64,000 bases of DNA from Candidatus Kerfeldbacteria bacterium (GCA_016193315.1 JACPSJ010000001.1:21935-85934); one strand, 5' to 3'. Positions 18,642 to 46,548 are shown, numbered from the stretch's first letter. The notes: a model not told the origin generated them from the letters alone. Made by a program: numbers and translations.

Positions 18642-19217
18642 TTACCACCTGATTCTCCCGGGTGATTGACGCCGCGGTAGGGTGCGTTTTTCTCGGCGCA
18701 GCTGAAGTAGTTCGCGGCGGAGGATGGTCACTTGGCCTCGGCGGCAGACCCTGAGGTACGTGAAGTACTGTGGCGGCACCCAGCGGAGGTACCAGTCCTT
18801 AATCACGGCCAGCGCTTTTCGTTGAGGGAAAAGACGCCGGTAGCGCTCGGCCCGCGGTCGATCGATTGACCGTGGGCAAGGCTTAAGCCGCTGCGGGTCA
18901 AAAGTGCGCCGATACTCCACCCACTGAACGCTACCGGGCGGCAACCACTCGTCGAGGAGCTGCTGTAAGACCTCCTCCGGGGTGGCATTGGCAAACACCG
19001 CATGCCATTCGGCTTCCAGTCGGCGCGGCAGGACGGCCAGATTGGTACCATCCAGACTTGCTCGCGAACGCGGCACGAGGTGATGACGAACATACGACGG
19101 GATTGGCCGGTGAGCCATGACGCCTCCTGGTGGAGAGTAGTGGAGAGTAGAAGTAGGGTGCAACCAAGCGAGTCCGAGGACAGCGTCGATGCTAACAAAC
19201 GTCCTCAACGCCGTCAA
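18642..19217 (-). CDS. hypothetical protein, divergent from the pilus operon
   Basis: ORF of 191 aa; basic, no recognisable motif; true start may be the internal MAHRP. Confidence 0.4.
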   Translation of the reverse strand: MTALRTFVSIDAVLGLAWLHPTSTLHYSPPGGVMAHRPIPSYVRHHLVPRSRASLDGTNLAVLPRRLEAEWHAVFANATPEEVLQQLLDEWLPPGSVQWVEYRRTFDPQRLKPCPRSIDRPRAERYRRLFPQRKALAVIKDWYLRWVPPQYFTYLRVCRRGQVTILRRELLQLRREKRTLPRRQSPGRIRW

Positions 19218-19248: not shown

Positions 19249-19283
19249 TTGGAATTGCCCGCGGCCTATGGTAATCTAGAGGC
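19249..19283 (+). promoter_or_regulatory. sigma70-like promoter candidate for the response-regulator/pil operon
   Basis: -35 TTGGAA, 17-nt spacer, TGgTAATCT (TG-extended -10) ending 3 nt before the ATG at 19287. Confidence 0.35.
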
Positions 19284-19286
19284 GCC

Positions 19287-19664
19287 ATGCCGGCTAAAAC
19301 ACCGAAGAACATTCTGATTGTTGAAGACGAAAAACCAACGGCCCAAGCTCTCCAACTGAAGCTGCAACGAAGCGGCTTTGCGGCGGCCATCGTCACTAAC
19401 GGTACCGACGCACTCGAAGCCTTGCTGCAACGCCGGTACTCACTAATCATTCTTGACCTCATCGTCCCGCAGCTAGACGGTTTCAGCTTTCTGGCGGCGA
19501 TGAAAGATCGCGGCGACCCGACGCCGGTCATCGTAGTCAGCAACCTCAGTCAGCCGGAAGATATGGCTCGGGCCGCCGAACTCGGCGCCAAGCATTTCTT
19601 CGTCAAGTCAGAAACAACCCTGGCGGCGATCGTCAACGCCATCAAGAAAACCCTGACGCCATGA
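19287..19664 (+). CDS. single-domain response regulator (CheY-like receiver)
   Basis: Receiver-domain motifs: ILIVEDE acidic pocket, phospho-acceptor IILDL(D), T/S at VIVVS, K at FFVKS. Confidence 0.85.
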   Translation: MPAKTPKNILIVEDEKPTAQALQLKLQRSGFAAAIVTNGTDALEALLQRRYSLIILDLIVPQLDGFSFLAAMKDRGDPTPVIVVSNLSQPEDMARAAELGAKHFFVKSETTLAAIVNAIKKTLTP

Positions 19665-21307
19665 AATTCGACGACGGCAAAATCAAGGACATCCTGCAAG
19701 GCGAAAATTACGTCTCGGCCGAAGATCTGGAAAAGGGGGCGGCCTCGGCGCGAGCCCACCGGGTCAGCCTAGTAGACGCACTGCTGGCCGAGAACCTGAT
19801 CACTAAGGATCTGCTGGGGCAAGCCATCGCCGAGTCGTTCGATGTCGCCTTCCTTGACTTGTCGGCGAACCCGCCGCCGCGTGATCTGGTGACGCGGTTG
19901 CCAGCCGCGATGGCCAAGCAAGAACGAGTCGTGCTGGTGGCCGAAGAACATCACCAGGTGAAGGTGGCAACTGACGACCCGGGACGGTCGACGCTAAAGA
20001 CGAAGCTGAAGAAACTCTGGCCCCGCAAGAAGCTGGTGGTCGTGTATGCGTTGCCAGAAGACATTGATGGCATACTGAAACACTATCGGCCGCCGCTCGG
20101 CAAACGGTTCCTAGCCATTCTCCAGCAACGGCAGCGGGTGGCGCCGGAGCTGATCGATGAAATCATCGAGGACGCAGTTACCAGCCGAGCCTCCGATATC
20201 CACATCGAGCCCCAAGGTCAGGAGATCGTTGTCCGCTTCCGGGTCGATGGCGTCCTCTATGAGGCCGGCCGGATCCCGAAGCGCTACTACGAGATGCTGC
20301 TCAACCGGATCAAGATCGAAGCCCGGTTACGGATCGATGAACATTTCGCCGCCCAAGACGGCGCTATTCGTCACGAACAACGGGATCGGGTGATCGATAT
20401 GCGGGTCTCGATCGTGCCAACCTACGATGGAGAAAAGGTGGCCATCCGGCTGTTGACCGACTATGTCCGCGAGTTCACGCTCGGGCGACTGGGGTTGTCC
20501 GAACGACACCAGCAGCAGTTACTCGAAGCCGCCCGCCAGCCATTCGGCATGATTCTAGTCACTGGCCCGACCGGGTCGGGCAAAACCACCTCGCTCTACG
20601 CGTTGATGAAAGTGCTAAACGCGCCGGAGATTAACATCACCACCATTGAGGACCCCATCGAATACCAGGTCACTGGCATCAACCAAATTCAGGCCAATCC
20701 GAATACCAACTTGACGTTCGCCCAAGGCTTACGGTCGATCATTCGCCAAGACCCAGATGTGGTCTTGGTCGGCGAGATACGTGACCAAGAGACAGCGGAA
20801 ATCGCCATTAACGCCGCTCTCACCGGCCACCTGTTGCTGTCCACTTTCCATGCCAACGACGCCGCCACAGTCATCCCTCGTTTGATCGAGATGGGTGTTG
20901 AGCCGTTCCTGGTCGCCTCGACCCTGGAACTGGTCATTGCCCAGCGTCTGGTCCGGACCATTTGCCGCGTTTGCCGAGTCAGCCAGCCGGTAAACCTCGA
21001 AGCGGTGGCCGAACTATACCCGCAAATCCGACGCTACCTGCGCGGGGCCAAGACGACGCTCTACCATGGCAAGGGATGCGCTGCTTGTAACGGCACCGGC
21101 TATCAAGGTCGGACTGGTCTATTCGAAGTCATTGCCATGACACCAGCGATGGAAGAACTAATTCTTCGCCGGCCAACGACGCAGATGGTCTGGCAACGAG
21201 CCGTCCAGCAAGGATCACGATCGCTGTTCGAGGATGGGATTGATAAAGTTAAAGCCGGGAAGACTACCCTCGAGGAGCTGCTGCGCGTCGCTCCGCCGCC
21301 GTCATAA
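19661..21307 (+). CDS. pilB: type IV pilus / type II secretion assembly ATPase (PilB/GspE family)
   Basis: GSPII_E N-terminal domain, Walker A GPTGSGKTT, Asp box and His box, tetracysteine CRVCRV...CAACNGTG. Confidence 0.9.
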   Translation: MKFDDGKIKDILQGENYVSAEDLEKGAASARAHRVSLVDALLAENLITKDLLGQAIAESFDVAFLDLSANPPPRDLVTRLPAAMAKQERVVLVAEEHHQVKVATDDPGRSTLKTKLKKLWPRKKLVVVYALPEDIDGILKHYRPPLGKRFLAILQQRQRVAPELIDEIIEDAVTSRASDIHIEPQGQEIVVRFRVDGVLYEAGRIPKRYYEMLLNRIKIEARLRIDEHFAAQDGAIRHEQRDRVIDMRVSIVPTYDGEKVAIRLLTDYVREFTLGRLGLSERHQQQLLEAARQPFGMILVTGPTGSGKTTSLYALMKVLNAPEINITTIEDPIEYQVTGINQIQANPNTNLTFAQGLRSIIRQDPDVVLVGEIRDQETAEIAINAALTGHLLLSTFHANDAATVIPRLIEMGVEPFLVASTLELVIAQRLVRTICRVCRVSQPVNLEAVAELYPQIRRYLRGAKTTLYHGKGCAACNGTGYQGRTGLFEVIAMTPAMEELILRRPTTQMVWQRAVQQGSRSLFEDGIDKVKAGKTTLEELLRVAPPPS

Positions 21308-21313
21308 TCAACC

Positions 21314-22900
21314 ATGAGGAAAAACCGCGCCAGCAACGACAGCGGTTCAGGCCGGCGGACGAAGACGCGGCATCACGACTGGCCGAGTCGCACGCGGGCA
21401 CCAGGCCGACTCGGATGGTGGCGGCGTGGCTGGGGCAAGGAGCGAGAGTATCTGATTGAGAACTTAGCGATGCTCGTCGCTTCGGGGCTGGACTTAGTGT
21501 TGGCTCTCCAGTCGCTGGTCGAAGAAACACGTTCGCCGGCTGCGCGTCGAGCCCTGGTGGCTGTCCGGAGCGAGGTGGAGACCGGCCAACCGCTGTGGCG
21601 AGCGCTCGCCGGCAGCCGAGCTTTTTCAGACTACGTCATTTCGTTGATCCGCGTGGGTGAAGAAAGCGGTCGGCTGGCCGAACATCTTCAGGTGGTGGCC
21701 GAACAACTAGCCAAGGACCGGCAGTTCGCCGAGCGGGTGCGCTCGGCCATGATGTATCCGCTGATTGTATTATCGCTCACCATTGTGGTCGGCACGGGCG
21801 TGGCTTGGTTTATCTTGCCTCGTCTGGCCACAATTTTCACCCAACTCCACCGCGACCTGCCGGTGGTGACAAGGGTAATGATCGCCAGCGGTCAGTTCCT
21901 AGGGACATTTGGGTGGTTGGCGGTGCCCTTGTTCCTGTTGGCGGTGGTTGGTGTGGGGTACCTCGTCTTTGTCCATCCCAAAACAAAATTCATCGGCGAA
22001 GGGCTGCTCGATCGAATTCCTCCCCTGCGTCGCCTGACGCAGGAGGTGGAATTGGCACGGGCGGGGTACCTGTTTGGACACTTGCTGGAGGCGGGCGTGC
22101 CGATCATCGAGTCGCTGGAATCGCTCAGCCAGGCGACGACCACTCGTAAATACCGACAGTTTTACCAGCACCTGCGAGGCAGCATCGCCGATGGGCATTC
22201 CTTCCGCCATAGCTTCCGCGTCATTCCGGCCGCCAACGCCATCGTCCCAACGCCCATCCAACAGATGATTGTGGCCGGCGAGCAATCCGGTCGCCTAGCC
22301 TCGACGTGGCTCGGTATTGGCCAGCGCTTCGAAGCCAAGACGGAAACGACGGCCAAAAACCTAGCGGTCGTCATCGAGCCCGGTTTGCTTGTCGTCGTTT
22401 GGTTGGGCGTGGTCTTTGTGGCGGTGGCCGTCATTCTGCCGATCTACTCGCTGATCGGCAGCTTGGATGAGCCGCCGGCCGTGAATGGCACGTCTCGGAA
22501 CGTCACGTCTCAGCCGCCGACCGCTGAGGCCAATACCAATACCGCGCCGCCGGCCGACGATAACGTCAATGTTACGGTCAATGCCCCGAGTGAGCCCGAA
22601 CCCACACCCAACCCGCCGGTCGGCGATTCGAATGAAAATACGAATCAAAATGTGACTCCGGAGACGCCGACGACTCCGACGGCCGGCAACCAACTGACGA
22701 TTAACCAGACCAGCACTGGCTATCTTAATGTCCGACAAGGGCCGGGCCTCGGATACACGGTCCTCACCCGGGCCAAGCCTGGCCAGACGTACCCCTGGCT
22801 CCGTCTCGAAGCCGGCTGGTATGAAATCGAATTGGCCGAGGGTCAAACCGGTTGGGTTATCGGCCGGTACGTAACCGTGGCATCGAGTCAGGAACCTTGA
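21314..22900 (+). CDS. pilC: PilC/GspF-type platform protein fused to a C-terminal Pro/Thr-rich linker and an SH3b-like domain
   Basis: Two T2SSF repeats with 3 TM segments (residues ~45-370), a PT-rich low-complexity stretch, then GYLNVRQGPGLGYTVLTRAKPGQTYPWLRLEAGWYEIELAEGQTGWVIGRYV, which resembles a bacterial SH3 domain. Confidence 0.8.
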   Translation: MRKNRASNDSGSGRRTKTRHHDWPSRTRAPGRLGWWRRGWGKEREYLIENLAMLVASGLDLVLALQSLVEETRSPAARRALVAVRSEVETGQPLWRALAGSRAFSDYVISLIRVGEESGRLAEHLQVVAEQLAKDRQFAERVRSAMMYPLIVLSLTIVVGTGVAWFILPRLATIFTQLHRDLPVVTRVMIASGQFLGTFGWLAVPLFLLAVVGVGYLVFVHPKTKFIGEGLLDRIPPLRRLTQEVELARAGYLFGHLLEAGVPIIESLESLSQATTTRKYRQFYQHLRGSIADGHSFRHSFRVIPAANAIVPTPIQQMIVAGEQSGRLASTWLGIGQRFEAKTETTAKNLAVVIEPGLLVVVWLGVVFVAVAVILPIYSLIGSLDEPPAVNGTSRNVTSQPPTAEANTNTAPPADDNVNVTVNAPSEPEPTPNPPVGDSNENTNQNVTPETPTTPTAGNQLTINQTSTGYLNVRQGPGLGYTVLTRAKPGQTYPWLRLEAGWYEIELAEGQTGWVIGRYVTVASSQEP

Positions 22901-22902
22901 GT

Positions 22903-23343
22903 ATGCTGAAAGCTATGCGGTCAGGAATTACTCTGATCGAGGTCCTGTTAAGTCTCACCGTGATCGGGTTGCTCGTCGGCCTGGCCGCACCGGTCATGCA
23001 GTCCCTCCAAGCGCGTAACGACCTCGACGTGGCCGCCAACATCACCGCGCAAACGCTGCGGCGAGCGCAAGCCTTAGCTGTGGCCGTGGACGGGGACATG
23101 ATGTGGGGAGTTGTCCTCCAACCAGGGTCGGTAGTTTTGTTTCGCGGGTCGTCGTATGCGGCTCGCGAGCCGACTTTCGACGAGCAGTATGATCTCGCCC
23201 CGGCCATTACGCCGAGCGGGTTGACGGAGGTCGTATTTGCCAAGCTGACCGGTCGACCACAGGCGGTCGGCACGATCACCCTGGCTAATCCGGAGACGAG
23301 CCGGACGCTGACGGTCAACGAACTGGGGATGATTGAATACTAG
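22903..23343 (+). CDS. prepilin-type minor pilin / pseudopilin
   Basis: Class III signal MLKAMRSG|ITLIEVLLSLTVIGLL with Glu at +5. Confidence 0.7.
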   Translation: MLKAMRSGITLIEVLLSLTVIGLLVGLAAPVMQSLQARNDLDVAANITAQTLRRAQALAVAVDGDMMWGVVLQPGSVVLFRGSSYAAREPTFDEQYDLAPAITPSGLTEVVFAKLTGRPQAVGTITLANPETSRTLTVNELGMIEY

Positions 23344-23496
23344 CCTTGGCGACCCAGACGTGCTATGCCCCGGCACACGTTACCTGACCGACCCACCGCA
23401 GGTCAGATCAAACACTCCGGCTTTATCAGACACCTCGCTTTTAGTGTGATGCGACGCTCGCGAGTAAAGAGGAGAATCAACCAGCAGTCCAATACT

Positions 23497-25227
23497 ATGG
23501 TCAGGCACAGACGGCAAAATGGCTCTAGCGCGGGGTTTTCGGTGGTTGAAGTTTTGCTGGGCGTCAGCGTCTTTAGCTTATTAGTGACAGTTTTCGTTGG
23601 GGCTTACATCTACGGCCGCGAAAGCTCGCTTTTGGCCGGCCACCGTGGCCGGGCCGCGTTGGTGGCCGAGGAAGCAATGGAGGGCGTTCGCAGCATTCGT
23701 GACGGCAGTTTCGTTGACCTGACGGCCGGTGATCATGGCGTCCTCCCGATCGGCGGCCAGTGGCAGTTCTTCGGGACTAGTGTCCTGAATGATATCTTCA
23801 CCCAGCAGGTGACGATCAACGACGTCAGTCCGACGGCCAAATCAGCTGTCGCTCAAGCCACCTGGACGCAGAATCTGCAGCGGCCAGGATCCGTCAGTCT
23901 GAGCACTCGTTTGACCGACTGGCGGCGAACTGTCCGGCGAGGTGGGATGCTTATTTATGGCGATTACTCTGGGAATGACGACGTTATTCAGTACCGCCTG
24001 TTCAGCCGCGCCGGCACCTGGGGCGCCGTACAAACGGTTCCAGATTTCGGTGTACCGCTGCACCGACCGACACGCCGAGTCGAACTGTATTCCAACCCTT
24101 CGTCACGTGATGAGAAGGTGTTGGTAACGAAACATTTTGGCGGCGGGGCGGGAGATGACCTTTATCTGTATGCCCAAGTTTGGAACGGCACGACTTGGGG
24201 CAATGCCACTCAACTCGCCACTCGGAAAGACACGAACTTCCCGAGCAGTCGCGAGTTCGACGGCGACTATCTCGACGACGGTCGGTTTCTCTTGGTCTAC
24301 GGCGATGACACCAGAATCCCAAAATTCAGATTCTGGGACGGTACGGCGTGGTCATCAGCCGCCCCAACCGTTGATATCCGCGGCCGACCAGTCTGGATTG
24401 TCGTTCGGTCCCGCTCAGGGACGAACGAAGCCATGGTCGTCATTCTCGACGACCAGCGGGATACGAACACCATCTACTGGAACGGCAGCAGCTGGCTCGG
24501 CCCGGTTGAACACGGCAATAACGGGCCGGGAGCGGAATTCGACATGGTCAACTTCGTTTGGCGGCCGACCAACCCGACGCTCGGCGCGCTCGTCTACAAC
24601 GAAGGGAATGACAACCATCCAAACATCAAAGTGTGGGACAATGGAATTTGGGGCCCCAGCGTGGAAAACATCAACCTGGGGAAATCTATCCGCGCGATGC
24701 AGACCACCAGCGATCCGACGAGTGGCGATTGGCTACTCGGCGTCAAGGACAACGGCGATCGTATCAACAGCTTACTGAGTGACACCACGCCATCGTGGCA
24801 TACATTGACCAACGGACAACTGGCGGTCAAGACCGACAACGGTCCGCAGCGGAGTTTTTCGCTGGCCTTTGAAACCAACGCCGGCCAGCGGGCCATCGCC
24901 GTCTACGCCGATGGGCCGAACGCTGATGCCCTGGGGATTCCTAAGTACCGGACGTATGACCCGGCTACGAAAACCTGGGGTGCCGCCGGGAACTTGGCCG
25001 ATCTTGGTGGTCGGGCCGCAGCGCTCGAGAGCGTGGGGTTAATTCCCGACCCAGGAGGGGAGGATATCATGACGCTGATGGCCACCACCAACCAGCAGCT
25101 GTGGACGGTGCGGTGGAACGGTGCGACGCACGCTTTTTACTCGACCGGCGACGAGGCGCAGATTCGTCAAGCCACGAACGGATCTAGCGACGAAGATTTT
25201 TGGTTTGATTATGCCTGGGACAATTAA
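23497..25227 (+). CDS. large prepilin-like protein (577 aa) with a PilY1-like C-terminal repeat (putative beta-propeller) domain
   Basis: Leader MVRHRRQNGSSAG|FSVVEVLLGVSVF. The C-terminal half carries ~6 repeats of a W(N/D)G..W motif (VWNGTTWGNA, FWDGTAWSSA, YWNGSSWLGP, VWDNGIWGPS, KTWGAAGN, VRWNGATHAF). Confidence 0.65.
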   Translation: MVRHRRQNGSSAGFSVVEVLLGVSVFSLLVTVFVGAYIYGRESSLLAGHRGRAALVAEEAMEGVRSIRDGSFVDLTAGDHGVLPIGGQWQFFGTSVLNDIFTQQVTINDVSPTAKSAVAQATWTQNLQRPGSVSLSTRLTDWRRTVRRGGMLIYGDYSGNDDVIQYRLFSRAGTWGAVQTVPDFGVPLHRPTRRVELYSNPSSRDEKVLVTKHFGGGAGDDLYLYAQVWNGTTWGNATQLATRKDTNFPSSREFDGDYLDDGRFLLVYGDDTRIPKFRFWDGTAWSSAAPTVDIRGRPVWIVVRSRSGTNEAMVVILDDQRDTNTIYWNGSSWLGPVEHGNNGPGAEFDMVNFVWRPTNPTLGALVYNEGNDNHPNIKVWDNGIWGPSVENINLGKSIRAMQTTSDPTSGDWLLGVKDNGDRINSLLSDTTPSWHTLTNGQLAVKTDNGPQRSFSLAFETNAGQRAIAVYADGPNADALGIPKYRTYDPATKTWGAAGNLADLGGRAAALESVGLIPDPGGEDIMTLMATTNQQLWTVRWNGATHAFYSTGDEAQIRQATNGSSDEDFWFDYAWDN

Positions 25228-25273
25228 CTACACTCGGCCGCGACCCAGGACCCAGCCTGACAAGGTTTCAGGA

Positions 25274-25777
25274 TTGAAATCCCGGCCCAGCTTTACCCTG
25301 ATTGAACTCCTCCTCTACATCTCGCTGACCGCCATCATTACCTTCTCGGTCAGCTCCTTTCTGGTCGTGACTATCGATGCGCGGGTAAAAAACCAAACGG
25401 TAGCCGAGGTCGAGCAACAGGGTCAGACGGCGATGGTCATGATGACGCAGGCGATCAGGAACGCTCAAGGCATCAACAGCCCCGCCCTGGGAGAGGTCAC
25501 TAACACATTGTCGCTCGACGTGATCGAGGTGAGCAAAGACCCGACGACATTCACTTTGGCTGCCGGACAGCTGTGGGTGCAGGAAGGTGTAGCCCCGGCA
25601 GTGGCCCTGACGAATACCCGCATCCGGGTCATGGACATGTCGTTCATAGACTTATCACGCTCGAGCCAATCGCGCTCCGTCCGTATCAACCTCGTTCTCA
25701 ACTACTTCAATACTAGCGGCCGCAACATCCACACCTACACCAAGGTCTTTCAAGCCGCGGCTAACCCACGACCATGA
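25274..25777 (+). CDS. prepilin-like minor pilin, probably TTG-initiated
   Basis: TTG at 25274 gives MKSRPS|FTLIELLLYISL, a short leader with Glu+5. The in-frame ATG at 25211 would overlap the upstream gene by 17 nt. Confidence 0.5.
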   Translation: MKSRPSFTLIELLLYISLTAIITFSVSSFLVVTIDARVKNQTVAEVEQQGQTAMVMMTQAIRNAQGINSPALGEVTNTLSLDVIEVSKDPTTFTLAAGQLWVQEGVAPAVALTNTRIRVMDMSFIDLSRSSQSRSVRINLVLNYFNTSGRNIHTYTKVFQAAANPRP

Positions 25778-26172
25778 ACCAACGACGAAAGGGCATGATT
25801 ACGCTGATCAGCATCCTCGTCCTGGCCGCGGTCGGCGGCGCGGTGGCGGTGTCACTACTGCTGCTCGGGGTGGATGCCACCAGGACGAGTTCCAGCCGCG
25901 AGTTCTCGGCCGCGGCCCGGGCCCTGGCCAACGCCTGTGTCGAGACAGCCCTCGAGGAAATTCGTTCTTATACTCCCTTCACCACCGCCGGCACAAACCT
26001 GAACATTGGTTCTGGCACCTGCACCTACGTCGTGGCAAACACTGGCGGCTTCCGTCGCACCATCCAGGCGAGCGGGAGCATGGGGTCAGTCAGCCGCAAG
26101 GTCTTGGTCACCGTTGACCGAATCAACCCTACTATTCGGGTCACGTCTTGGCAGGAAGTGGGGGATTTCTAG
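25774..26172 (+). CDS. prepilin-like minor pilin (PilX/ComGG-like)
   Basis: MNQRRKG|MITLISILVLAAVGGAVAV; 4-bp overlap with the upstream pilin. Confidence 0.6.
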   Translation: MNQRRKGMITLISILVLAAVGGAVAVSLLLLGVDATRTSSSREFSAAARALANACVETALEEIRSYTPFTTAGTNLNIGSGTCTYVVANTGGFRRTIQASGSMGSVSRKVLVTVDRINPTIRVTSWQEVGDF

Positions 26173-26220
26173 GTCGGCGCCATACCGCTGGCCCGCCCAA
26201 TCAGGCTGTGTACAGCTCTT

Positions 26221-26253
26221 TGCTTCACAGACGAGCGCGGGTGTGCTATAATA
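26221..26253 (+). promoter_or_regulatory. extended -10 promoter upstream of the major pilin gene
   Basis: gtgTGcTATAAT at 26245..26253 (TGnTATAAT consensus); TTGCTT 21 nt upstream. Confidence 0.45.
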
Positions 26254-26308
26254 GGTGTGGTCGAGCCAGTACCTAACATCCAGATCTAGATAATCTCTCC
26301 AAACGAAA

Positions 26309-26818
26309 ATGAAACTAACCATGCCGACGCTTTCGTTACAAACCCGCCGCCATCTCCCCCGCGGGCGGGCAGGACGGGCCGGTTTTACGCTGCTCGAAAT
26401 TCTACTCGTCGTGGCGGCCATCGGTATTTTAGCGGGGATTGTCATCATAGCCATTAATCCTACCAAACAGCTCGGTGACACTCGGAACGCCCAGCGCAAA
26501 ACGGACGTCAATACGATCCTCAATGCGGTGTACCAGTACGCGGTTGACAGCGGTTCAATCCCATCGACGATCACGGACACCGCTACCGAGATTTGCGCCA
26601 CCGGCGTGGCCGCCGCTGATTGTACCACCGCCGGGCTGATTGATCTCTCAGTTCTGACCACGGCCGAGAAATACTTAGTCTCCATGCCCCAGGATCCGCA
26701 GTGTAGCACCGTTTGCGCGACCGACGGCGTCGACTACCAAATCCTCAAGACGGCCAATAACCGCGTGACGGTCAGCGCGCCGGGAGCTGAAGGAACGACC
26801 GTTTCGGTCACCCGATAA
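26309..26818 (+). CDS. pilA: type IVa major pilin candidate
   Basis: ...RAGRAG|FTLLEILLVVAAIGILAGIVIIAINP classical pilin N-terminus; Cys pairs in the C-terminal part; own promoter. Confidence 0.75.
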   Translation: MKLTMPTLSLQTRRHLPRGRAGRAGFTLLEILLVVAAIGILAGIVIIAINPTKQLGDTRNAQRKTDVNTILNAVYQYAVDSGSIPSTITDTATEICATGVAAADCTTAGLIDLSVLTTAEKYLVSMPQDPQCSTVCATDGVDYQILKTANNRVTVSAPGAEGTTVSVTR

Positions 26819-26884
26819 GTCAGGCGGCTTAAACCCACCAGATTCTCTCCGGAAAATAGCTCTCCCTGACGGGCGAGCTAGTGA

Positions 26885-29800
26885 TTGCATGCCATGTTTC
26901 CCTCCACCACCGTCCACCATCCTCCGTCATCAACACTTTCCGCGCCTCAGGTAAGCCGCCAACCGTTGACCGGCCGACAAGTGATCGTGCGCTTAGCCAG
27001 CGCCGCGGTTTCTTATCTGGGCTTGTTTACCTTGATCGGCTGGGCGGGGGAACTCGAAACATTCAAGAGCGTCTTACCCGGGACGTTACCAACGAACCCG
27101 TTGCTGGCCGTGTCCTTAATCTTTCTCGGCGGCGCGATGTGGCTAGCGGAAGATCGTTCCCGGGCCGAGCTGCAGCGGCTAAGCGGCGTTTTGTCTGGCA
27201 CAGTGGTGGCCGTGGCGATACTGCGGCTGGTGGCCTGGCTGGGGCTCGATCTGGGTATCGATCAAGCCATCTTCCCCAGAGCGGTTAGCTCGTATGTCCC
27301 GCCCATCCGGATCGGCATCGCCACCGCGGTTGGTCTCCTCACGGGGTCGACGGCGCTGGCCTTCCTCCGCCTCGGCCACCAACGGTGGTTGCGGCCGGCG
27401 CAGTGGTTATCGTTCCTAACGGCAACATTGGCCAGCCTGGCCCTGATCGGACATCTTTACGGCGTCACCGCACCCGTACCGATCGGTCTAGTTTCCGCTG
27501 TCGGCCTGTTGATTGTTGGTCTCGGCCTGCTGGCCAGCGATCCACTCCGCCAGCTGCCAGGCTTAGGTCTGGCCACGAAAGTCAGTCTAGCCGTCGGATT
27601 CTTCGGCCTGGTCAGCATGGCCGTCGCCAGCTACTCGGTCTACGGCAAGACGATTCGTGATCTCGAGCAGTCGCTCGGCCAGCAACAAGAAGTCGCGGCG
27701 GCTAACACGATGCAGAAGATTGACCGTTTGCTGGAAGAGGCGTTGGAGGATATCGAATTGATCAGCACTGATAACGCCCTAGTCGCGTCCTTGTCTAGTT
27801 CGCCAACAGACACAGACGTTAGCTCTCGTCTCAGCACGCTGGCCGGCGCCACTGGGCCGTGGTCGATGTTGAGTGTCGTCGGATCGGACTTTCAGCTGGT
27901 GTCCTCGACGAGCCCTTCGTTTTCATCAACCTCGACGGCCCTCACGACCGAAGGCCGGCGTGTCTTGACGTCGGCGCGGCTGCGATTGGTATCTTACAGC
28001 GATGTCATCCCACCCACCCGCCAGCGCTCACCAACCGTTATCCTGGCCGCGCCAGTCTTGGCCACTGCTCCTGATCGCCCCCTCCTCGGGGTGGCGGTCG
28101 GCGAGATAGATTGGTCCGGGGTGACCAAGACGTTACGCGACGTCCGTGATGGCACGGTCCAGCTCTACGACCGCCGCGGGATCATGGTGGCCACGAATGA
28201 TGTCGGTCGGCAGCGCTTGGCGTGGCGAGCAAATTTTCGCGGCCACCGGGCGGTGGATCAAGCGCTGCGCGGGCGAGTCGGGTCAGAGATTGGTTCGGGG
28301 CTAGTCCCGGAGTCGATTGGTCAAGCCCCACCAACGCTCGCGGTAGGCGAATTAACTGCCGGTTCGGAAGCAACGTCACAACAAACACTCGTTTCCTACG
28401 TGCCGCAGCGTGGGTACCTCGAGTATCGCGGCAGTGGCTGGGCTTTGACCCTGGAGACGAAAACCGGCTCCGTGGTGACGGCGGCGCTGCAGACCGCTTC
28501 CCAAGTAGCTCTGACCACTGCGGTTTTAGTCAGCCTACTGATTGTGTCCTTGCTACTCGTGCTGCGGACGTTCCTTCATCCCGTGGCCCGACTGACCGCC
28601 GGCGCCCGCGGCTTAGCGGCTGGCAATTTTGCTCAGCGAGTGGCGGCCGACACTGATGACGAACTCGGCCAGCTAGCGGCGGCATTTAACACCATGGCCA
28701 CCCGCCTCCAGGAGCTCTACCGACGACTTGATGATAAAGTCCATCGGCGGACGGCACAGCTGGTGGAGAAAGTAGAGTTCATCTCCCGCCAAAATCTCCT
28801 GCTACAGGAAGCACGTCGAGCGATGTCAAAGGTGGTCCAAGAATTACAAACCGACAAGGCGAGGATCGCCGAAGAGCAGGCCAAAGACCAAGCCATGCTA
28901 GCCAGCATCGGCGATGGGGTGGCCATCACCGATGCCGAGGGGAAGGTAGTAATGTTGAATCAGTCCGCGGAACGACTGCTGGGGTGGACCGTCGCCGAAG
29001 CGATCGGCCAGCGTTACGATCAGGTGGCCCCGCTGGTTGACGACCGTGGTCGAGAAGTCCCGCTCCTGGAACGGCATTTCTACCAATCGCTGCAAACCGG
29101 CGCGGTCACGTCGTTACCAGTCATCGCTTCCCGCTCATTCTATCGGCGGAGAGATGGGACCAAGTTTCCGATGGCGGGCATTACCACCCCGATCCATCTC
29201 CACCATCGAATCATCGGCGCCATTACCGTCTTCCGCGACATTACCCAGGAAAAAGCTGTTGATCGCGCCAAGACGGAATTTGTGTCCCTCGTCTCACATC
29301 AACTCCGGACCCCGATTTCATCAATCAATTGGCTGACCGAGCTACTCCTGACCGGTGAAATTGGTCGCCTGACTCGAGACCAACGTCAAGTGGTCGGCGA
29401 AATCGCTTCCGCCAGCCACCGCGTGATCGAGATGGTCACGACGTTCCTCAACGCGACACGATTAGAACTCGGTACGCTGGTGGTCGAACCGGAGCCGGTC
29501 GACGTCAGCCGCCTGGTGACATCGATTTTCCAGGAGCTGGAGCCGGTCGTCAAGCACAAGCGTTTGCAGATGGAACAACGCCAGGTCGGTCCAGGGACGC
29601 CGGTGCCGGCCGATCCGACCCTGATGCGCATCATCGTTCAGAATTTGCTCACCAACGCCGTCGTCTACTCCCGCCCCGGTGGCAAGGTTCGGGTGACCGT
29701 AACGAACCGTAGTCCCCAGGCCAGGCCGGCGCCGGACGCCCAGGGAGTGATGATCTTGGAAGTAGCCGATAATGGCATCGGCATCCCGACCGAACAACAG

Positions 29801-30127
29801 CCCCAAATCTTCGATAAGCTTTTTCGGGCAGATAACGCTCGGACGGCTGAACCGAACGGTACCGGTCTCGGATTATACATCGTCAAGTCTATCCTCGACC
29901 ACGTCGGCGGTACCATCTCGTTCACCTCTCCAGCCGGGCGGGGCACAACCTTTACGGTCACCTTGCCGCTGAGCGGCATGAAGCGACAGGCCGGCACCAA
30001 GCCGCTCCAGATCAGTCCGCGCAAACAAGTATCTCTGGACACGAGTAACAAAAAACCCCGATCCCCGCGATCCCCAATTGAATCGGGGCGGGGAGATCGG
30101 AGACAGCCTGTTGGCATCAGGCGGTAA
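26885..30127 (+). CDS. sensor histidine kinase (1080 aa): N-terminal multi-TM sensor, ~300-aa extracytoplasmic domain, HAMP, PAS, HisKA, HATPase_c
   Basis: ~7 N-terminal TM helices, HAMP (LTAGARGLAAGNFAQRVAADTDDELGQLAAAFNTMATRLQ), PAS (ASIGDGVAITDAEGKVVMLNQSAERLLGWT), H-box EFVSLVSHQLRTPISSI, N/G boxes (LLTNAVVYS, GTGLGLYIV). Confidence 0.85.
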   Translation: MHAMFPSTTVHHPPSSTLSAPQVSRQPLTGRQVIVRLASAAVSYLGLFTLIGWAGELETFKSVLPGTLPTNPLLAVSLIFLGGAMWLAEDRSRAELQRLSGVLSGTVVAVAILRLVAWLGLDLGIDQAIFPRAVSSYVPPIRIGIATAVGLLTGSTALAFLRLGHQRWLRPAQWLSFLTATLASLALIGHLYGVTAPVPIGLVSAVGLLIVGLGLLASDPLRQLPGLGLATKVSLAVGFFGLVSMAVASYSVYGKTIRDLEQSLGQQQEVAAANTMQKIDRLLEEALEDIELISTDNALVASLSSSPTDTDVSSRLSTLAGATGPWSMLSVVGSDFQLVSSTSPSFSSTSTALTTEGRRVLTSARLRLVSYSDVIPPTRQRSPTVILAAPVLATAPDRPLLGVAVGEIDWSGVTKTLRDVRDGTVQLYDRRGIMVATNDVGRQRLAWRANFRGHRAVDQALRGRVGSEIGSGLVPESIGQAPPTLAVGELTAGSEATSQQTLVSYVPQRGYLEYRGSGWALTLETKTGSVVTAALQTASQVALTTAVLVSLLIVSLLLVLRTFLHPVARLTAGARGLAAGNFAQRVAADTDDELGQLAAAFNTMATRLQELYRRLDDKVHRRTAQLVEKVEFISRQNLLLQEARRAMSKVVQELQTDKARIAEEQAKDQAMLASIGDGVAITDAEGKVVMLNQSAERLLGWTVAEAIGQRYDQVAPLVDDRGREVPLLERHFYQSLQTGAVTSLPVIASRSFYRRRDGTKFPMAGITTPIHLHHRIIGAITVFRDITQEKAVDRAKTEFVSLVSHQLRTPISSINWLTELLLTGEIGRLTRDQRQVVGEIASASHRVIEMVTTFLNATRLELGTLVVEPEPVDVSRLVTSIFQELEPVVKHKRLQMEQRQVGPGTPVPADPTLMRIIVQNLLTNAVVYSRPGGKVRVTVTNRSPQARPAPDAQGVMILEVADNGIGIPTEQQPQIFDKLFRADNARTAEPNGTGLGLYIVKSILDHVGGTISFTSPAGRGTTFTVTLPLSGMKRQAGTKPLQISPRKQVSLDTSNKKPRSPRSPIESGRGDRRQPVGIRR

Positions 30128-31976
30128 TGGTGCATTTCATGTGGTGGATGAACGTCAGTAACCGACGGGTGATTTCCTGTCCCGGGCCGACGGCTTGACG
30201 TGCGTGCGGATTGAGGCCGACGGTGTCCTGGTGTTTCTTCCGCTTCTCGAGCAAGACCCGCGTCCGGACTAAGAACTGCAGCGCCGCGCGGAACTGCCAA
30301 GGATCGTAGGCGCCCCCCAAGGTTCCTTGGACCCGCTGCCGCACCTGGTTGACGGCTTCATATCGGTCTTTCACGGCCAGCTGGTCGCGCTTGCCGAGCT
30401 GGTACAAACCGTGGATGAGGATGGCCCGGGCGTGGCAGTGGTCGATGTCAGGGGGTAGGCAGTCGCGGACGTCGAATAGCTCCTCGGCTTCGGCGAAGTT
30501 ACGAATTGCCGCCCCGTTGGTCGGTGCGACGGCGGTAGTCTTGCTTTCCAGCGGAGGTTCCGTTTCCTCGGGAGCTAAAGCCGCCTCCAGTGCCTGACCG
30601 AGCCAGTAATCGCCGATAGCCCGTCGGGGATTTGTCTCTTCCTCTCGGAAGCTGTGCAGATACTGCCTGAACCGCTCGAGTTGTGCCGGTGGGATGTCCT
30701 CTCGGCGAATCAGCGCCAGCCGGCCGAGTAAGCGCTGACGGTAATCGGGGCTCTGTGGAGATAGCGCTTCGCGCCGCGGGTGGTCCTGGCGCTCAGCCCA
30801 GCCTCGAACGTCCCACATCGCCCGCACGCGAACTTCCAACGCGCAGCTTGGATCGTTGGCTGTTCGCCAGAGCTGGTTTGCTTCCCCGGTCATTGCCCGA
30901 TCTCGAAGCTGAGCGTCGACCTGCGGCAAGAGCCGGTGTTCGAGGTCATCGACCAGCCGGCGCACCACCCCGGCCTGGCGCGCCTCCTTTCGATTCTTCG
31001 TCAGCTCGACCGCGGCGGCGCTTAGCAGCCGGGCGTAGTGCTGACGATACCATTCGATCCGCGGTGACAGATTCAATAGCCACAAGCTCGGCCGCCTGAC
31101 TCGGCGTCCGATCGCCCGGTGTTGACGGTAGAGAATGTACAGATAGCGGTAGGCGCGCCGGGTTTGACGGAAGTGGTAGCCGATCGCCACGACGATGATC
31201 GTCAGCCCGACGGCGATGAGGATCCTCGGTCGGGTGGCTTCAAGCAGGTGGGCGAAGTGGTAGTCGATGGTGCCGGTGGCTTTTGTCAGCGTTAGTCCGG
31301 GCGAGAAGCCGGGGAACATCGATCCCGCCCGGGCCGCCAGCCGCTGGTAAAGATGTTCGAGATTCGCCAGGTTGTCGGCGCGTTGGTCTGACTCCGGGTA
31401 GCGAATCCAGAGCTGCGGGTACTCTTTGTACCCCAGGCTTCTCTCTTTCTTCGCGTCGATGCCGGCGTTCGGTCCGACACCGAGCACCTCGTGCGGCACA
31501 AACATCGTCGTCAAGATGCCCGGCCCCCGCCACCAGTGAAACTGGACGTAGCCGAGCGGCTTGCCGCGGAGCGGATCGAAAGCAGTGATCACGCTATCGG
31601 ATAGGCTTCTCCAACGGAGGCCGAGGGCCCGCTCATCTGCTTTCTTGCCGAGGCTTCCCAAGCGGTGGTTTTCGAGATAGACTTTGATGCCGGTCGCGCG
31701 CCGGAACTCACCGACGCCGGAGTCAAGAACGTATTCGGCGTTGCCGGCGTGATTGGGGCACCGCCACTTGTGGAGCGGCGGCCAGCAGGAGAAGAGGACG
31801 AGATACAGTCCCAGCAGAAGCGGCACCAAGATGACTGGCCAGCCGTAGTTCCGCTGCGACCACGAGAGTTGCGTTGGCGGTTGGGCCATGACACGAATCT
31901 CCTTTCGGAGTTGGGGGTGGGATGTCAAACAGCGTTCAAGATCTGCGGCAGCAAGGCCTTGTAGCATTTTTTCCAA
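30117..31976 (-). CDS. hypothetical membrane protein (619 aa), 2 TM helices
   Basis: Only long ORF in this 1.9-kb very GC-rich stretch; plus-strand ORFs are all under 140 aa; no recognisable domain; overlaps the HK stop by 11 nt. Confidence 0.4.
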   Translation of the reverse strand: MEKMLQGLAAADLERCLTSHPQLRKEIRVMAQPPTQLSWSQRNYGWPVILVPLLLGLYLVLFSCWPPLHKWRCPNHAGNAEYVLDSGVGEFRRATGIKVYLENHRLGSLGKKADERALGLRWRSLSDSVITAFDPLRGKPLGYVQFHWWRGPGILTTMFVPHEVLGVGPNAGIDAKKERSLGYKEYPQLWIRYPESDQRADNLANLEHLYQRLAARAGSMFPGFSPGLTLTKATGTIDYHFAHLLEATRPRILIAVGLTIIVVAIGYHFRQTRRAYRYLYILYRQHRAIGRRVRRPSLWLLNLSPRIEWYRQHYARLLSAAAVELTKNRKEARQAGVVRRLVDDLEHRLLPQVDAQLRDRAMTGEANQLWRTANDPSCALEVRVRAMWDVRGWAERQDHPRREALSPQSPDYRQRLLGRLALIRREDIPPAQLERFRQYLHSFREEETNPRRAIGDYWLGQALEAALAPEETEPPLESKTTAVAPTNGAAIRNFAEAEELFDVRDCLPPDIDHCHARAILIHGLYQLGKRDQLAVKDRYEAVNQVRQRVQGTLGGAYDPWQFRAALQFLVRTRVLLEKRKKHQDTVGLNPHARQAVGPGQEITRRLLTFIHHMKCTITA

Positions 31977-46315: not shown

Positions 46316-46387
46316 TCGGTCCCTAGCTCAATGGTAGAGCACTCGTCTTATACACGAGCGGTTGCAGGTTCGAGTCCTGCGGGACCG
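46316..46387 (+). tRNA. tRNA with anticodon TAT (would read AUA; Ile-like), no encoded CCA
   Basis: Cloverleaf: acceptor CGGTCCC/GGGACCG, D-arm GCTC..GAGC, anticodon stem CTCGT/ACGAG, loop CTTATAC, T-arm GCAGG TTCGAGT CCTGC. Confidence 0.6.
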
Positions 46388-46548
46388 AGTTTGGGCGGGA
46401 CAGGTACACGAGCGGTCGCGGGACTGCCCCGAAAACGAGGAACTACGTGACAAGTTGTACGGGACTCGAATCCTGGCGGGCCGACCATGGAAAGGGTGTA
46501 TCGCCTCAGCGCTTAAGGCACCCGGTGTGAAAGATTCAACCGAAAACT

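What the first reader, a model, noticed from the sequence alone, without database searches (positions are those of the whole stretch)
19249..30127. Compact pilus locus bracketed by an orphan CheY-like regulator and a 1080-aa multi-sensor histidine kinase, lacking PilD/PilT/PilMNO in cis
Gene order is promoter, REC-only regulator, PilB, PilC-SH3b, 4 pilin-like genes, then a separately promoted major pilin, then the HK. The HK has a ~7-TM N-terminal module, a ~300-aa extracytoplasmic domain, HAMP, PAS, HisKA and HATPase. The REC protein has no output domain, so if it is the HK's partner it likely acts by protein-protein interaction (for example on PilB). No prepilin peptidase, retraction ATPase, alignment-complex genes or secretin are in the window.
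Basis: inference. Interest (0 to 1): 0.5.

Follow-up and report, generated by a model that had tools for sequence, protein, structure and literature searches.

The report
Sensor-wired pilus operon of CPR bacteria
This is a type IV pilus operon from a tiny Candidatus Kerfeldbacteria (CPR) bacterium, and its bracketing response regulator and sensor kinase are not strays: the same arrangement recurs across many CPR lineages, so it is probably a built-in signalling switch for a lectin-tipped pilus.

Summary
Window 19287-30127 (+) encodes a REC-only regulator, PilB, PilC-SH3b, four minor pilins, a separately promoted major pilin, and a 1080-aa kinase (about 7 TM, ectodomain, HAMP, PAS, HisKA, HATPase). 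Neither the window nor about 5 kb beyond each end holds a PilD, PilT, PilMNO or secretin gene.

New findings:
- The source is a Candidatus Kerfeldbacteria MAG (CPR/Patescibacteria).
- The cassette REC-PilB-PilC-4 minor pilins-major pilin-HK recurs across CPR lineages. REC sits directly upstream of pilB in 19 of 20 close loci, and the HK is present in 14 of 14 loci long enough to show it.
- In more distant CPR loci the HK lies next to REC, upstream of pilB. This supports a cognate pair dedicated to the pilus.
- The 620-aa minor pilin carries a lectin-like 7-bladed beta-propeller.
- PilC-SH3b fusions are common in CPR.
- The kinase's sensor half is lineage-specific: an unannotated 6-TM module fused to a Cache-type module.

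Most likely mechanism (inferred): an external cue acts on the HK, the HK phosphorylates REC, and REC~P modulates the PilB/PilC motor directly. Xanthomonas EmvR is the precedent.

I rate it a new variant of a known kind, of moderate interest.

The parts
19250..19278 (+). Possible weak promoter (TTGGAA-17-TAATCT) ahead of the REC gene
   Evidence: Read from the sequence. The consensus scan did not report it, so this is inference only.
19287..19664 (+). Stand-alone receiver (REC-only) response regulator, 125 aa
   Evidence: Pfam Response_reg 3e-21 and no other domain. E13/D14, D57, S85 and K106 are conserved in 18 orthologues. It belongs to the clade of PilB-adjacent RECs.
19661..21307 (+). PilB/GspE-type assembly ATPase with an N-terminal MshEN domain, 548 aa; its start overlaps the REC stop by 4 nt
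   Evidence: T2SSE 3e-121 and MshEN 2e-14. NCBIfam PilB/GspE about 484 bits, below the equivalog cut-offs. Identical to the NCBI Kerfeldbacteria protein P0155.
21314..22900 (+). PilC/GspF platform protein fused to a disordered Pro/Thr/Asn-rich linker and a C-terminal SH3b domain (aa 470-520)
   Evidence: Two T2SSF repeats plus SH3_3 1e-11. The AF2 model has pLDDT 85, three long membrane helices, a disordered linker and an SH3 barrel at pLDDT about 97. Roughly two-thirds of the 120 best PilC hits in CPR have the same fusion.
22903..23343 (+). Minor pilin 1 (GspH-like N-terminus), 146 aa; leader MLKAMRSG|ITLIE
   Evidence: N_methyl; weak GspH/GspG N-terminal hits; orthologues in L003-L015.
23497..25227 (+). 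Minor pilin 2 with a C-terminal lectin-like 7-bladed beta-propeller (ORF from 23365; likely start M45, leader ...SSAG|FSVVE)
   Evidence: AF2 pLDDT 90.3: N-terminal helix, pilin sheet, then all-beta 150-574. Foldseek best compact matches are Photorhabdus PLL/PHL and Burkholderia BP39L lectins, target-normalised TM 0.61-0.70. Only the N-terminal 130-190 aa are conserved in the loci, and the size ranges from 331 to 1688 aa.
25211..25777 (+). Minor pilin 3, 188 aa; leader ...KSRPS|FTLIELLL
   Evidence: Gene call in L081; orthologues carry GFTLIELLLY; weak pseudopilin hits.
25774..26172 (+). Minor pilin 4, 132 aa, lacking Glu+5 (GspK/PilX-like feature); leader MNQRRKG|MITLIS
   Evidence: Glu+5 is absent in the window and in all 11 orthologues. 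The ATGA overlap with the preceding gene follows from the coordinates.
26224..26252 (+). Strong sigma-70-like promoter (TTCACA-17-TG-TATAAT) for the major pilin
   Evidence: Consensus scan, 11 of 12 matches with an extended -10. A consensus match only; activity is not shown.
26309..26818 (+). Major pilin, 165-169 aa; G|FTLLEILLVVAAIGILAGIVIIAINP, 4 Cys
   Evidence: N_methyl; GspG-like N-terminus; 54-67% identical orthologues at the same position in L003-L013.
26885..30127 (+). Sensor histidine kinase, 1077-1080 aa: 6-TM module (about 25-225), TM-ectodomain-TM (about 226-570, Cache-like), HAMP, PAS, HisKA, HATPase
   Evidence: Pfam; hydropathy. The transmitter half is 32-40% identical to kinases at the same position in relatives. 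The two sensor modules occur separately in other proteins and together only here.

Best explanation
This is a self-contained type IV pilus core cassette of a CPR bacterium (Candidatus Kerfeldbacteria) with its own two-component switch.

Structural part:
- A PilB ATPase and a PilC platform polymerise a GspG-like major pilin.
- Four minor pilins form the priming and tip complex. One of them displays a lectin-like beta-propeller, probably a glycan adhesin for a host or surface.
- The PilC C-terminus should lie outside the membrane (3 TM, N-terminus in). It carries an SH3b domain that probably tethers the platform to peptidoglycan.

Regulatory part (inferred):
- The membrane kinase encoded after the major pilin senses an extracytoplasmic or membrane cue through its lineage-specific sensor half.
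- It autophosphorylates and transfers phosphate to D57 of the REC-only protein, which is translationally coupled to PilB.
- REC~P then acts directly on the motor (PilB, possibly PilC) to switch pilus extension on or off. Transcription is not involved, because REC has no output domain.

The prepilin peptidase, and any PilM/N/O or retraction ATPase, are supplied from elsewhere in the genome or are dispensable.

Shown: gene content, domains, conservation of the arrangement, intact catalytic residues, and the propeller and SH3 folds (predicted). Inferred: HK-to-REC phosphotransfer, REC-motor contact, the sign of regulation, and the ligands.
For: Anatomy.

Source organism: (NCBI names, 857-kb contig). 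Nearest relatives are all Patescibacteria.

Conservation:
- REC is directly upstream of pilB (gap -1 to +103 nt in the window-type loci measured) in 19 of 20 window-type loci, against 4 of 61 more distant PilB loci. Fisher p is about 1e-13.
- An orthologous HAMP/PAS/HisKA/HATPase kinase follows the pilins in 13 loci that reach that far, and follows PilC directly in L001.
- The gene order is permuted in distant CPR loci, with the HK adjacent to REC upstream of or beside pilB.
- PilB-adjacent RECs form one clade.

Pairing and competence:
- This REC and this HK are the only two-component genes in the 64-kb window and its roughly 5-kb flanks.
- The phospho-acceptor pocket is intact and the H-box is conserved.

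Operon structure: the run from REC to minor pilin 4 has overlaps or gaps of at most 21 nt.

Folds: propeller adhesin; PilC-SH3b.

Precedents:
- The single-domain RR EmvR binds PilB, represses its ATPase and is linked to the kinase ColS (PMC11973254).
- DrdR binds PilB and PilT (PMC13507683).
- In TM7x, a propeller-bearing minor pilin, PilX2, is needed for host binding (PMC11623550).
Against: - There is no direct evidence of a REC-PilB contact. The multimer-style prediction could not be run.
- No natural REC-PilB fusion occurs among the 120 nearest PilB relatives.
- In Synechocystis, stand-alone CheY-type regulators did not bind PilB1 or PilC; only PATAN-domain ones did.
- For P. aeruginosa PilG/PilH, no direct PilB interaction has been reported.
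- Several sister loci have an additional REC gene right after the HK. In those genomes the HK's primary partner could be that one.
- The rest of the genome (about 857 kb) could not be searched for other kinases, regulators, PilD, PilM or PilT.
- The ectodomain's Cache assignment is below Pfam's threshold.
Confidence: 0.6

Rival explanations
1. The PilB-adjacent REC is a phosphate sink or connector, not the effector. The kinase's real output would be another regulator: an HK-adjacent REC as in sister loci, or a DNA-binding regulator elsewhere. That regulator would control pilin transcription as PilS-PilR does. The REC would only tune signal flow, as proposed for PilH.
For: - Extra REC-only genes lie next to the HK in L001, L089, L090, L091 and L092, and two RECs lie next to the HK in L017 and L018. 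They form clades separate from the PilB-adjacent RECs.
- The HK sits immediately after a separately promoted major pilin. This recalls pilin-linked PilS.
- A PilH sink role is discussed in the PilB-cofactor review.
Against: - In the window, and in L004, L007, L009 and L093, no second REC is present in the cassette. The window and its flanks hold no DNA-binding regulator domain paired with REC.
- It is the PilB-adjacent REC, not the HK-adjacent one, that is universally kept and translationally coupled to pilB.
Confidence: 0.2
2. The cassette is a non-retractile, Com-like DNA-uptake pseudopilus (the ComGA/GB/GC-GG equivalent) rather than an adhesive pilus. The two-component pair would be a competence switch.
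For: - The inventory is the same as a ComG operon: one ATPase, one platform, one major and four minor pilins, with no PilMNO or PilT and the peptidase encoded elsewhere.
- There are weak ComGC/GD/GE/GF N-terminal hits.
- From my own knowledge, CPR bacteria depend on scavenged nucleotides and usually carry ComEC.
Against: - All ComG models score far below their cut-offs: ComGA 256 against 300, ComGB 120 against 240.
- PilB has the long MshEN N-terminal domain that ComGA lacks.
- The major pilin gene is last, not first.
- One minor pilin carries a large lectin-like propeller. That fits adhesion, as shown for TM7x PilX2.
- No comEC or comEA is in the window.
Confidence: 0.12
3. The REC and the HK are unrelated neighbours of the pilus genes, each with another partner, and the bracketing is a coincidence.
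For: They are 7 kb apart on opposite sides of the pilus genes, which is not the usual adjacent HK-RR layout. The rest of the genome was not searchable.
Against: - The arrangement is conserved across Kerfeld-, Falkow-, Jackson-, Lipton-, Moran-, Parcu- and Peribacteria-labelled genomes at 47-62% PilB identity. REC is present in 19 of 20 loci and the HK in 14 of 14.
- Permuted loci place the HK next to REC.
Confidence: 0.04

Closest known systems
EmvR / ColS-ColR of Xanthomonas oryzae pv. oryzicola (single-domain RR acting on PilB; PMC11973254), and DrdR of X. campestris (PMC13507683)
   Same: An output-less receiver protein, phosphorylatable on the conserved Asp, is linked to a membrane HisKA-type kinase. 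It controls type IV pilus function post-translationally by binding PilB and changing its ATPase activity.
   Different: - EmvR is a genomic orphan shared with a classical ColS/ColR pair. Here the receiver is translationally coupled to pilB, and the kinase sits inside the pilus cassette.
- Binding to PilB is experimental there and only inferred here.
- Sequence relatedness to EmvR was not tested. The REC's best matches are generic OmpR-family and RssB receivers.
- The organisms are CPR, not Proteobacteria.
Pil-Chp system PilG/PilH (P. aeruginosa) and Tax/Pix CheY-like regulators (Synechocystis)
   Same: Stand-alone receiver proteins govern where and when the PilB motor works. Some sister CPR loci even have two or three REC-only genes, reminiscent of antagonistic PilG/PilH pairs.
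   Different: - No CheA, CheW or MCP is present. The kinase is a classical transmembrane HisKA/HATPase sensor.
- No direct PilG/H-PilB contact is known.
- In Synechocystis, only PATAN-domain regulators, not CheY-type ones, bound PilB1 or PilC.
PilS-PilR two-component control of pilin expression
   Same: A multi-TM sensor kinase is genetically linked to the major pilin gene. The kinase could monitor pilin or the membrane state.
   Different: The partner here has no NtrC-type AAA+ or DNA-binding output. No similarity of the 6-TM module to PilS was tested. The kinase has an additional large ectodomain.
Saccharibacteria (TM7x) type IV pili, especially T4P-2 with the propeller-bearing minor pilin PilX2 (PMC11623550)
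   Same: A CPR pilus with a small major pilin, T2SS-pseudopilin-like minor pilins and one large minor pilin carrying a heptabladed beta-propeller implicated in host binding. T4P-2 has no retraction ATPase in its loci.
   Different: - The TM7x loci include PilM/N/O (and PilD and PilT in locus one), and their pilins are split from the motor genes.
- That paper mentions no response regulator or histidine kinase in any T4P locus (0 occurrences).
- Orthology to the TM7x genes was not tested.
ComG competence pseudopilus operon of Firmicutes
   Same: A minimal inventory: one ATPase, one platform, one major plus four minor pilins, with the peptidase encoded elsewhere and no PilMNO, PilT or secretin.
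   Different: - Scores are below all ComG equivalog cut-offs.
- PilB has an MshEN N-domain.
- The gene order differs, with the major pilin last and under its own promoter.
- The propeller adhesin, the SH3b tail and the embedded two-component system have no ComG counterpart.

Membership tests
Type IV filament (T4P/T2SS/Com) assembly systems | PilB/GspE-family hexameric assembly ATPase | tested here: met
   T2SSE 3e-121 and MshEN; a tetra-Cys motif is visible in the sequence; PilB/GspE models about 484 bits.
Type IV filament (T4P/T2SS/Com) assembly systems | PilC/GspF polytopic platform protein with two T2SSF repeats | tested here: met
   Two T2SSF repeats, 4e-42; three TM helices in the AF2 model.
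Type IV filament (T4P/T2SS/Com) assembly systems | Pilins with a class III signal peptide (Gly-1, hydrophobic helix, Glu+5) | tested here: met
   The major pilin and two of the minor pilins have G|(F/I)xxxE. Minor pilin 3 has Ser at -1 with Glu+5. Minor pilin 4 lacks Glu+5, as GspK and PilX do.
Type IV filament (T4P/T2SS/Com) assembly systems | Prepilin peptidase (Peptidase_A24, PilD/ComC) | tested here: not met
   None among the window ORFs of at least 150 aa that were scanned, nor in the roughly 5-kb flanks. It is presumably encoded elsewhere on the 857-kb contig, which could not be searched. Peribacteria relatives have it about 3.7 kb upstream.
Type IVa pilus machine (PilMNOPQ plus PilT) | PilM/PilN/PilO alignment complex | tested here: not met
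   Absent from the window. Present beside or inside some related cassettes: L089 has PilM_2 and PilN, and L017-L019 have PilM_2.
Type IVa pilus machine (PilMNOPQ plus PilT) | PilT/PilU retraction ATPase | tested here: not met
   There is no second T2SSE gene in the window. The extra ATPase 2.8-4 kb left of the window is GspE/PilB-type (509 bits against 183 for the PilT family, with a tetra-Cys motif).
Classical two-component system | Kinase with a phospho-acceptor His (HisKA) and an ATP-binding HATPase_c; receiver with an acidic pocket, Asp57, Ser/Thr and Lys | tested here: met
   HisKA 4e-11 and HATPase_c 5e-28; H-box SHQLRTP. REC has E13/D14, D57, S85 and K106, all conserved.
Classical two-component system | The kinase and the receiver are cognate (phosphotransfer specificity) | tested here: inconclusive
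   Conserved co-occurrence and permuted adjacency support it. Phosphotransfer itself is not testable with these tools, and extra RECs in sister loci leave the wiring open.
Chemosensory (CheA/CheY, Pil-Chp) control of pili | CheA-type kinase with CheW and an MCP feeding a CheY-like receiver | tested here: not met
   No CheA, CheW or MCP domains occur in the window or the related cassettes. The kinase is of HisKA type. The receiver's nearest relatives are OmpR-family and RssB receivers.
PilS-PilR | NtrC-type response regulator (REC, AAA+, HTH) activating a sigma-54 pilin promoter | tested here: not met
   The only regulator is a 125-aa REC. The pilin promoter looks like a sigma-70 type.
EmvR-like single-domain regulators of PilB | Output-less receiver that physically binds PilB and changes its ATPase activity | not testable with these tools
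   The architecture is met.
ComG competence pseudopilus | ComGA/ComGB/ComGC-GG equivalogs in the order ATPase, platform, major pilin, minor pilins | tested here: not met
   All ComG models score below their cut-offs. The major pilin gene is last.

The most novel reading that the evidence does not exclude
Many CPR/Patescibacteria lineages share a hard-wired 'sense-and-grab' module. A kinase with a fast-evolving external sensor detects a host or surface cue. Through a pilB-coupled stand-alone receiver, it directly gates extension of a pilus tipped with a lectin-like propeller. In many lineages a peptidoglycan-binding SH3b tail on PilC would take over the anchoring role of the missing PilMNO/secretin scaffold. 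On this reading the cassette would be the host-recognition switch of episymbiotic ultrasmall bacteria.
Probability: 0.3. Interest if true: 0.7.

Novelty: new variant of a known kind. Interest (0 to 1): 0.45.

Why it matters
Type IV pili are the best-supported host-contact organelles of CPR bacteria. The Saccharibacteria T4P study lists extension/retraction regulation among many open questions (PMC11623550).

A two-component pair that is conserved inside the pilus cassette across many CPR lineages gives a concrete, testable candidate for that control. It also gives a defined set of parts to test:
- the receiver;
- a kinase with interchangeable sensors;
- a lectin-like tip pilin;
- the PilC-SH3b anchor.

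It would extend the recently found 'receiver binds PilB' mechanism from Xanthomonas to a very distant, genome-reduced group in which transcriptional regulators are scarce.

None of the component types is new, so the surprise for a pilus specialist is moderate.

Tried and rejected
- AlphaFold prediction of a REC-linker-PilB chimera, as a stand-in for AF-multimer.
- Rosetta-stone test, searching 5.8 billion proteins with a REC+PilB concatenate. All 120 best hits are PilB alone, about 550 aa at 81% coverage, with no fusion. This is negative but not decisive.
- Retrieving the 857-kb NCBI contig through P0001, to look genome-wide for PilD, PilT and PilM. The protein was not on record. Only about 5 kb beyond each window end could be read from Logan contigs.
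- The extra T2SSE ATPase left of the window was considered as the 'missing PilT'. I rejected this: it is GspE/PilB-type with a tetra-Cys motif.
- The PilC-SH3b tail first looked unique, since 0 of 20 loci chosen by PilB similarity had it. I rejected this too: about two-thirds of the 120 best PilC hits have it.
- Sequence similarity between the window kinase's sensor half and those of orthologous kinases: none.
- Specificity-residue comparison of the DHp helices: all are PhoR/WalK-like and too few pairs were available for co-variation.
- Literature searches for a described CPR pilus/two-component cassette or a PilC-SH3b fusion found nothing.
- The Rfam and tRNA scans found nothing relevant to the locus.

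Full report
**1. What is in the sequence**

On the + strand between 19287 and 30127 there are nine genes.

- **REC**, 125 aa, 19287-19664: receiver domain only (Response_reg, 3e-21).
- **PilB**, 19661-21307: T2SSE 3e-121 plus an N-terminal MshEN domain. Its ATG overlaps the REC stop codon (ATGA).
- **PilC**, 21314-22900: two T2SSF repeats, then a Pro/Thr/Asn-rich linker and an SH3_3 domain at aa 470-520.
- **Four pilin-like genes**:
  - 22903-23343, leader MLKAMRSG|ITLIE.
  - 23365/23497-25227, leader ...SSAG|FSVVE.
  - 25211-25777, leader ...SRPS|FTLIE.
  - 25774-26172, leader MNQRRKG|MITLIS, with no Glu+5.
- **Major pilin**, 26309/26321-26818: G|FTLLEILL.
- **Kinase**, 1077-1080 aa, 26885/26894-30127.

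From REC to the fourth minor pilin the genes overlap or are at most 21 nt apart. A 136-nt gap then holds a near-consensus sigma-70-type promoter at 26224-26252 (TTCACA-17-TG-TATAAT). The kinase follows the pilin after about 70 nt with no convincing terminator. The 'promoter' before REC is only a weak match.

Kinase layout, from hydropathy and Pfam:
- about seven TM segments (33-253);
- an ectodomain of about 280 aa, with a sub-threshold dCache_1 hit;
- an eighth TM (535-570);
- HAMP, PAS, HisKA and HATPase_c.

The locus is insulated. Upstream lie an ABC/FtsX pair, terminator-like hairpins and a small divergent ORF. Downstream lies a convergent 619-aa ORF.

**2.

Pfam on nearly all long non-overlapping ORFs of at least 150 aa in the window found no Peptidase_A24, PilT-type ATPase, PilM/N/O or secretin. 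tblastn with the locus proteins found no other REC, kinase or PilB paralogue. Contigs from the same population extend about 5 kb beyond each end.

- The right side holds only glycosyl-metabolism genes.
- The left side holds a 424-aa T2SSE ATPase about 2.8-4 kb outside the window. It has a tetra-Cys motif and scores 509 and 474 bits on the GspE and PilB models, against 183 on the PilT family. It is therefore a second assembly-type ATPase without an N-domain, not a retraction ATPase.

The window also contains a sixth pilin gene at 34520-35458 (-). Its features are:
- leader ...RRIFG|FTLIEIV;
- a Cys-rich globular part of about 260 aa;
- a position next to DsbA-like and VKOR genes.

**3. Source and relatives**

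The 620-aa protein and PilB are identical to NCBI proteins of a 'Candidatus Kerfeldbacteria bacterium' MAG on an 857,372-bp contig. The nearest PilB relatives among 185,579 species genomes are all Patescibacteria, at no more than 59% identity. Public protein collections hold relatives up to 62% identical.

**4. The arrangement is a conserved cassette**

I called ORFs in the fetched loci and searched them with the nine window proteins.

- L003-L007, L009, L010 and L013 contain the cassette from REC through the pilins to the HK in the same order (L007 and L013 each lack a detectable match to one or two of the minor pilins).
- L002, L008, L011, L012 and L015 show the same beginning and are cut by contig ends.
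- L001 has REC-PilB-PilC followed directly by the kinase and two more RECs.
- Five further contexts, reached from PilC or PilB homologues, repeat the pattern with precomputed Pfam labels:
  - L089;
  - L090 (Moranbacteria);
  - L091 (a Kerfeldbacteria relative);
  - L092 (Jacksonbacteria);
  - L093 (Liptonbacteria).

Counts:
- REC lies directly upstream of pilB in 19 of 20 window-type loci. In the 14 genome-contig loci measured the gap is -1 to +103 nt.
- The exception is L014, which has 470 nt of non-coding DNA there.
- Only 4 of 61 more distant PilB loci have a REC there, all of them CPR (Fisher p about 1e-13).
- A kinase with an orthologous transmitter half (32-40% identity, E 1e-65 to 1e-117) is in the cassette in all 14 loci that extend far enough: after the pilins in 13, and directly after PilC in L001.

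In more distant CPR loci the order is permuted so that the kinase is adjacent to a receiver:
- HK-REC-REC-PilB in L017 and L018;
- HK-REC-PilB in L060 and L063;
- HK-REC-pilin-...-PilB in L019;
- PilB-HK-REC-PilC in L016.

This is the strongest available evidence that the kinase and the receiver form one dedicated circuit with the pilus motor.

**5. The receiver and the kinase look functional**

In 18 orthologues the receiver keeps E13/D14, D57, S/T85 and K106, plus a family signature (DGF..., SNLGQEED, YFVKSNTP). Its nearest solved and curated relatives are OmpR-family and RssB receivers, not CheY. This fits a HisKA (PhoR/WalK-like) kinase.

A rough neighbour-joining tree puts all PilB-adjacent receivers of window-type loci in one clade. 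The extra receivers encoded next to the kinase in L001, L089, L090 and L091 fall in separate clades. L092's extra receiver is a recent copy of its PilB-adjacent one. The window has only the PilB-adjacent type.

**6. The sensor half of the kinase is lineage-specific**

Orthologous kinases range widely:
- PAS-only with no confident TM segment (L092);
- TM-ectodomain-TM, the commonest form, with a clear dCache_1 in L090;
- multi-TM forms (L017, L018).

Residues 1-560 of the window kinase match none of them. A search of 1.84 billion representative proteins shows that two modules make up this half:
- Residues about 25-225 are a six-TM module with no Pfam family. It heads many unrelated PAS/HisKA or hybrid kinases.
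- Residues about 226-560 are the TM-ectodomain-TM module that begins hundreds of kinases and HAMP proteins.
- Among the 150 best of 2,854 hits, only the query itself carries both modules.

'Multi-sensor' is therefore apt, and the double input is peculiar to this lineage.

**7. Structural parts**

*Propeller pilin.* AlphaFold2 on a 31-sequence alignment of the 620-aa pilin gave pLDDT 90.3. The model shows a long N-terminal helix, a small pilin sheet and a large all-beta domain. Foldseek's best compact matches are seven-bladed propeller lectins:
- Photorhabdus PLL/PHL and Burkholderia BP39L;
- target-normalised TM 0.61-0.70;
- about 400 aligned columns at 10-13% identity.

Only the N-terminal 130-190 aa are conserved among the loci. 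The C-terminal part varies from about 330 to 1688 aa, with fn3 or LVIVD hits in some. This is what a variable tip adhesin would look like. It parallels TM7x PilX2, a propeller-bearing minor pilin needed for host binding.

*Minor pilin 4.* It lacks Glu+5 in every orthologue, as GspK and PilX do. The four minor pilins thus resemble a GspH/I/J/K-like priming set.

*PilC-SH3b.* None of the 20 loci chosen by PilB similarity has the tail, but roughly two-thirds of the 120 best PilC hits do. These include proteins named as Uhr-, Moran-, Kaiser-, Magasanik- and Paceibacterota. AF2 (pLDDT 85) shows three long membrane helices, a disordered linker of about 70 aa and a confident SH3 barrel.

From the established GspF/PilC topology (N-terminus in, three TM), the tail should be outside the membrane. 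Binding to peptidoglycan is an inference from what SH3b domains usually do.

**8. Where the missing parts are in relatives**

- Four Peribacteria-type loci have a PilD (A24) gene about 3.7 kb upstream of REC. It is separated by smpB, recR and a divergent purH.
- L089 has a convergent PilM-PilN operon just after the cassette.
- L017 and L018 carry long PilM_2 proteins between the minor and major pilins.

The core cassette is thus modular, and the accessory genes wander. Their absence from this window is normal for the type. Whether this genome has them at all could not be tested.

**9. Mechanism**

The best-supported model has three steps:
1. The kinase senses an outside or membrane cue.
2. It phosphorylates the pilB-coupled receiver.
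3. The receiver, having no output domain, acts directly on PilB, or on PilC, to gate pilus extension.

The first two steps rest on conservation and intact catalytic residues. The last rests on gene coupling and on precedent:
- EmvR, a single-domain regulator, binds PilB, represses its ATPase and interacts with the kinase ColS.
- DrdR binds PilB and PilT.

Cautions:
- Synechocystis CheY-type regulators did not bind PilB1.
- No PilG/H-PilB contact is known.
- No REC-PilB fusions were found.
- Extra receivers in sister loci allow a sink or two-receiver circuit.

My estimates are 0.6 for direct motor control, 0.2 for a sink or connector role, 0.12 for a Com-like DNA-uptake function of the filament (a question about the filament, not exclusive of the first two), and 0.04 for coincidence.

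**10. Novelty**

Every component type is known. What I could not find described is the CPR-wide cassette with an embedded kinase and a pilB-coupled receiver, or the PilC-SH3b fusion. This holds for the main Saccharibacteria pilus paper (zero mentions of a response regulator or histidine kinase) and for five further full-text searches.

I rate it a new variant of a known kind, with interest 0.45. It is useful because it turns 'how do CPR bacteria regulate their pili?' into a testable circuit. It is not startling to a pilus specialist.

Noticed in passing
window 34520-35458 (-), with 33664-34272 (-) and 32650-33342 (-): A sixth, orphan type IV pilin has the leader ...RRIFG|FTLIEIV and a Cys-rich C-terminal part of about 260 aa. 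It lies 4.4 kb beyond the kinase, on the same strand as a DsbA-like thioredoxin and a VKOR, which could be an oxidative-folding set for pilins. It resembles the major pilins of other loci.
   Followed up: partly
L087:14037-15311 (-), about 2.8-4 kb before window coordinate 1: A second assembly-type ATPase of 424 aa has no N-terminal domain, carries a tetra-Cys motif, and scores GspE 509 bits against PilT family 183. It stands alone between an aminotransferase gene and rpsP. Its partner machinery is unknown.
   Followed up: partly
window 26960-27560 (kinase aa about 25-225): A six-TM membrane module with no Pfam family recurs at the N-terminus of many unrelated PAS/HisKA and hybrid kinases, and also occurs as short stand-alone proteins. 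It looks like an undescribed membrane sensor domain.
   Followed up: partly
window 334-3778 (-); also L092:1-5939: A PEP-synthase/PPDK-like enzyme appears split into three consecutive genes: PPDK_N, then two PEP-utilizers proteins. A similar trio of PEP-utilizers genes lies beside the pilus cassette in a Jacksonbacteria contig.
   Followed up: no
window 49631-52852 (-): A 1073-aa predicted surface protein combines a VWA domain, a SpaA-like prealbumin fold and three DUF11 repeats. It could be a second adhesin.
   Followed up: no
window 46316-46389 (+): A tRNA-Ile with anticodon TAT (UAU), which from my own knowledge is uncommon in bacteria, is one of seven tRNA genes scattered over 46-62 kb.
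   Followed up: no
window 56925-57797 (+): A 290-aa protein has a TonB_C domain (2e-20). This is unexpected in a group usually thought to lack an outer membrane.
   Followed up: no
window 30117-31976 (-) and 18642-19217 (-): The ORFs flanking the cassette have no Pfam match and no counterpart next to the cassette in any related locus. They are a 619-aa ORF convergent with the kinase (overlapping its end by 11 nt) and a 158-191-aa ORF divergent from REC.
   Followed up: partly
L093:15334-15696: In the Liptonbacteria cassette, a small gene with 23S_rRNA_IVP/bAvd hits sits between two minor pilin genes. This family is associated with diversity-generating retroelements, which is noteworthy next to variable pilins.
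   Followed up: no
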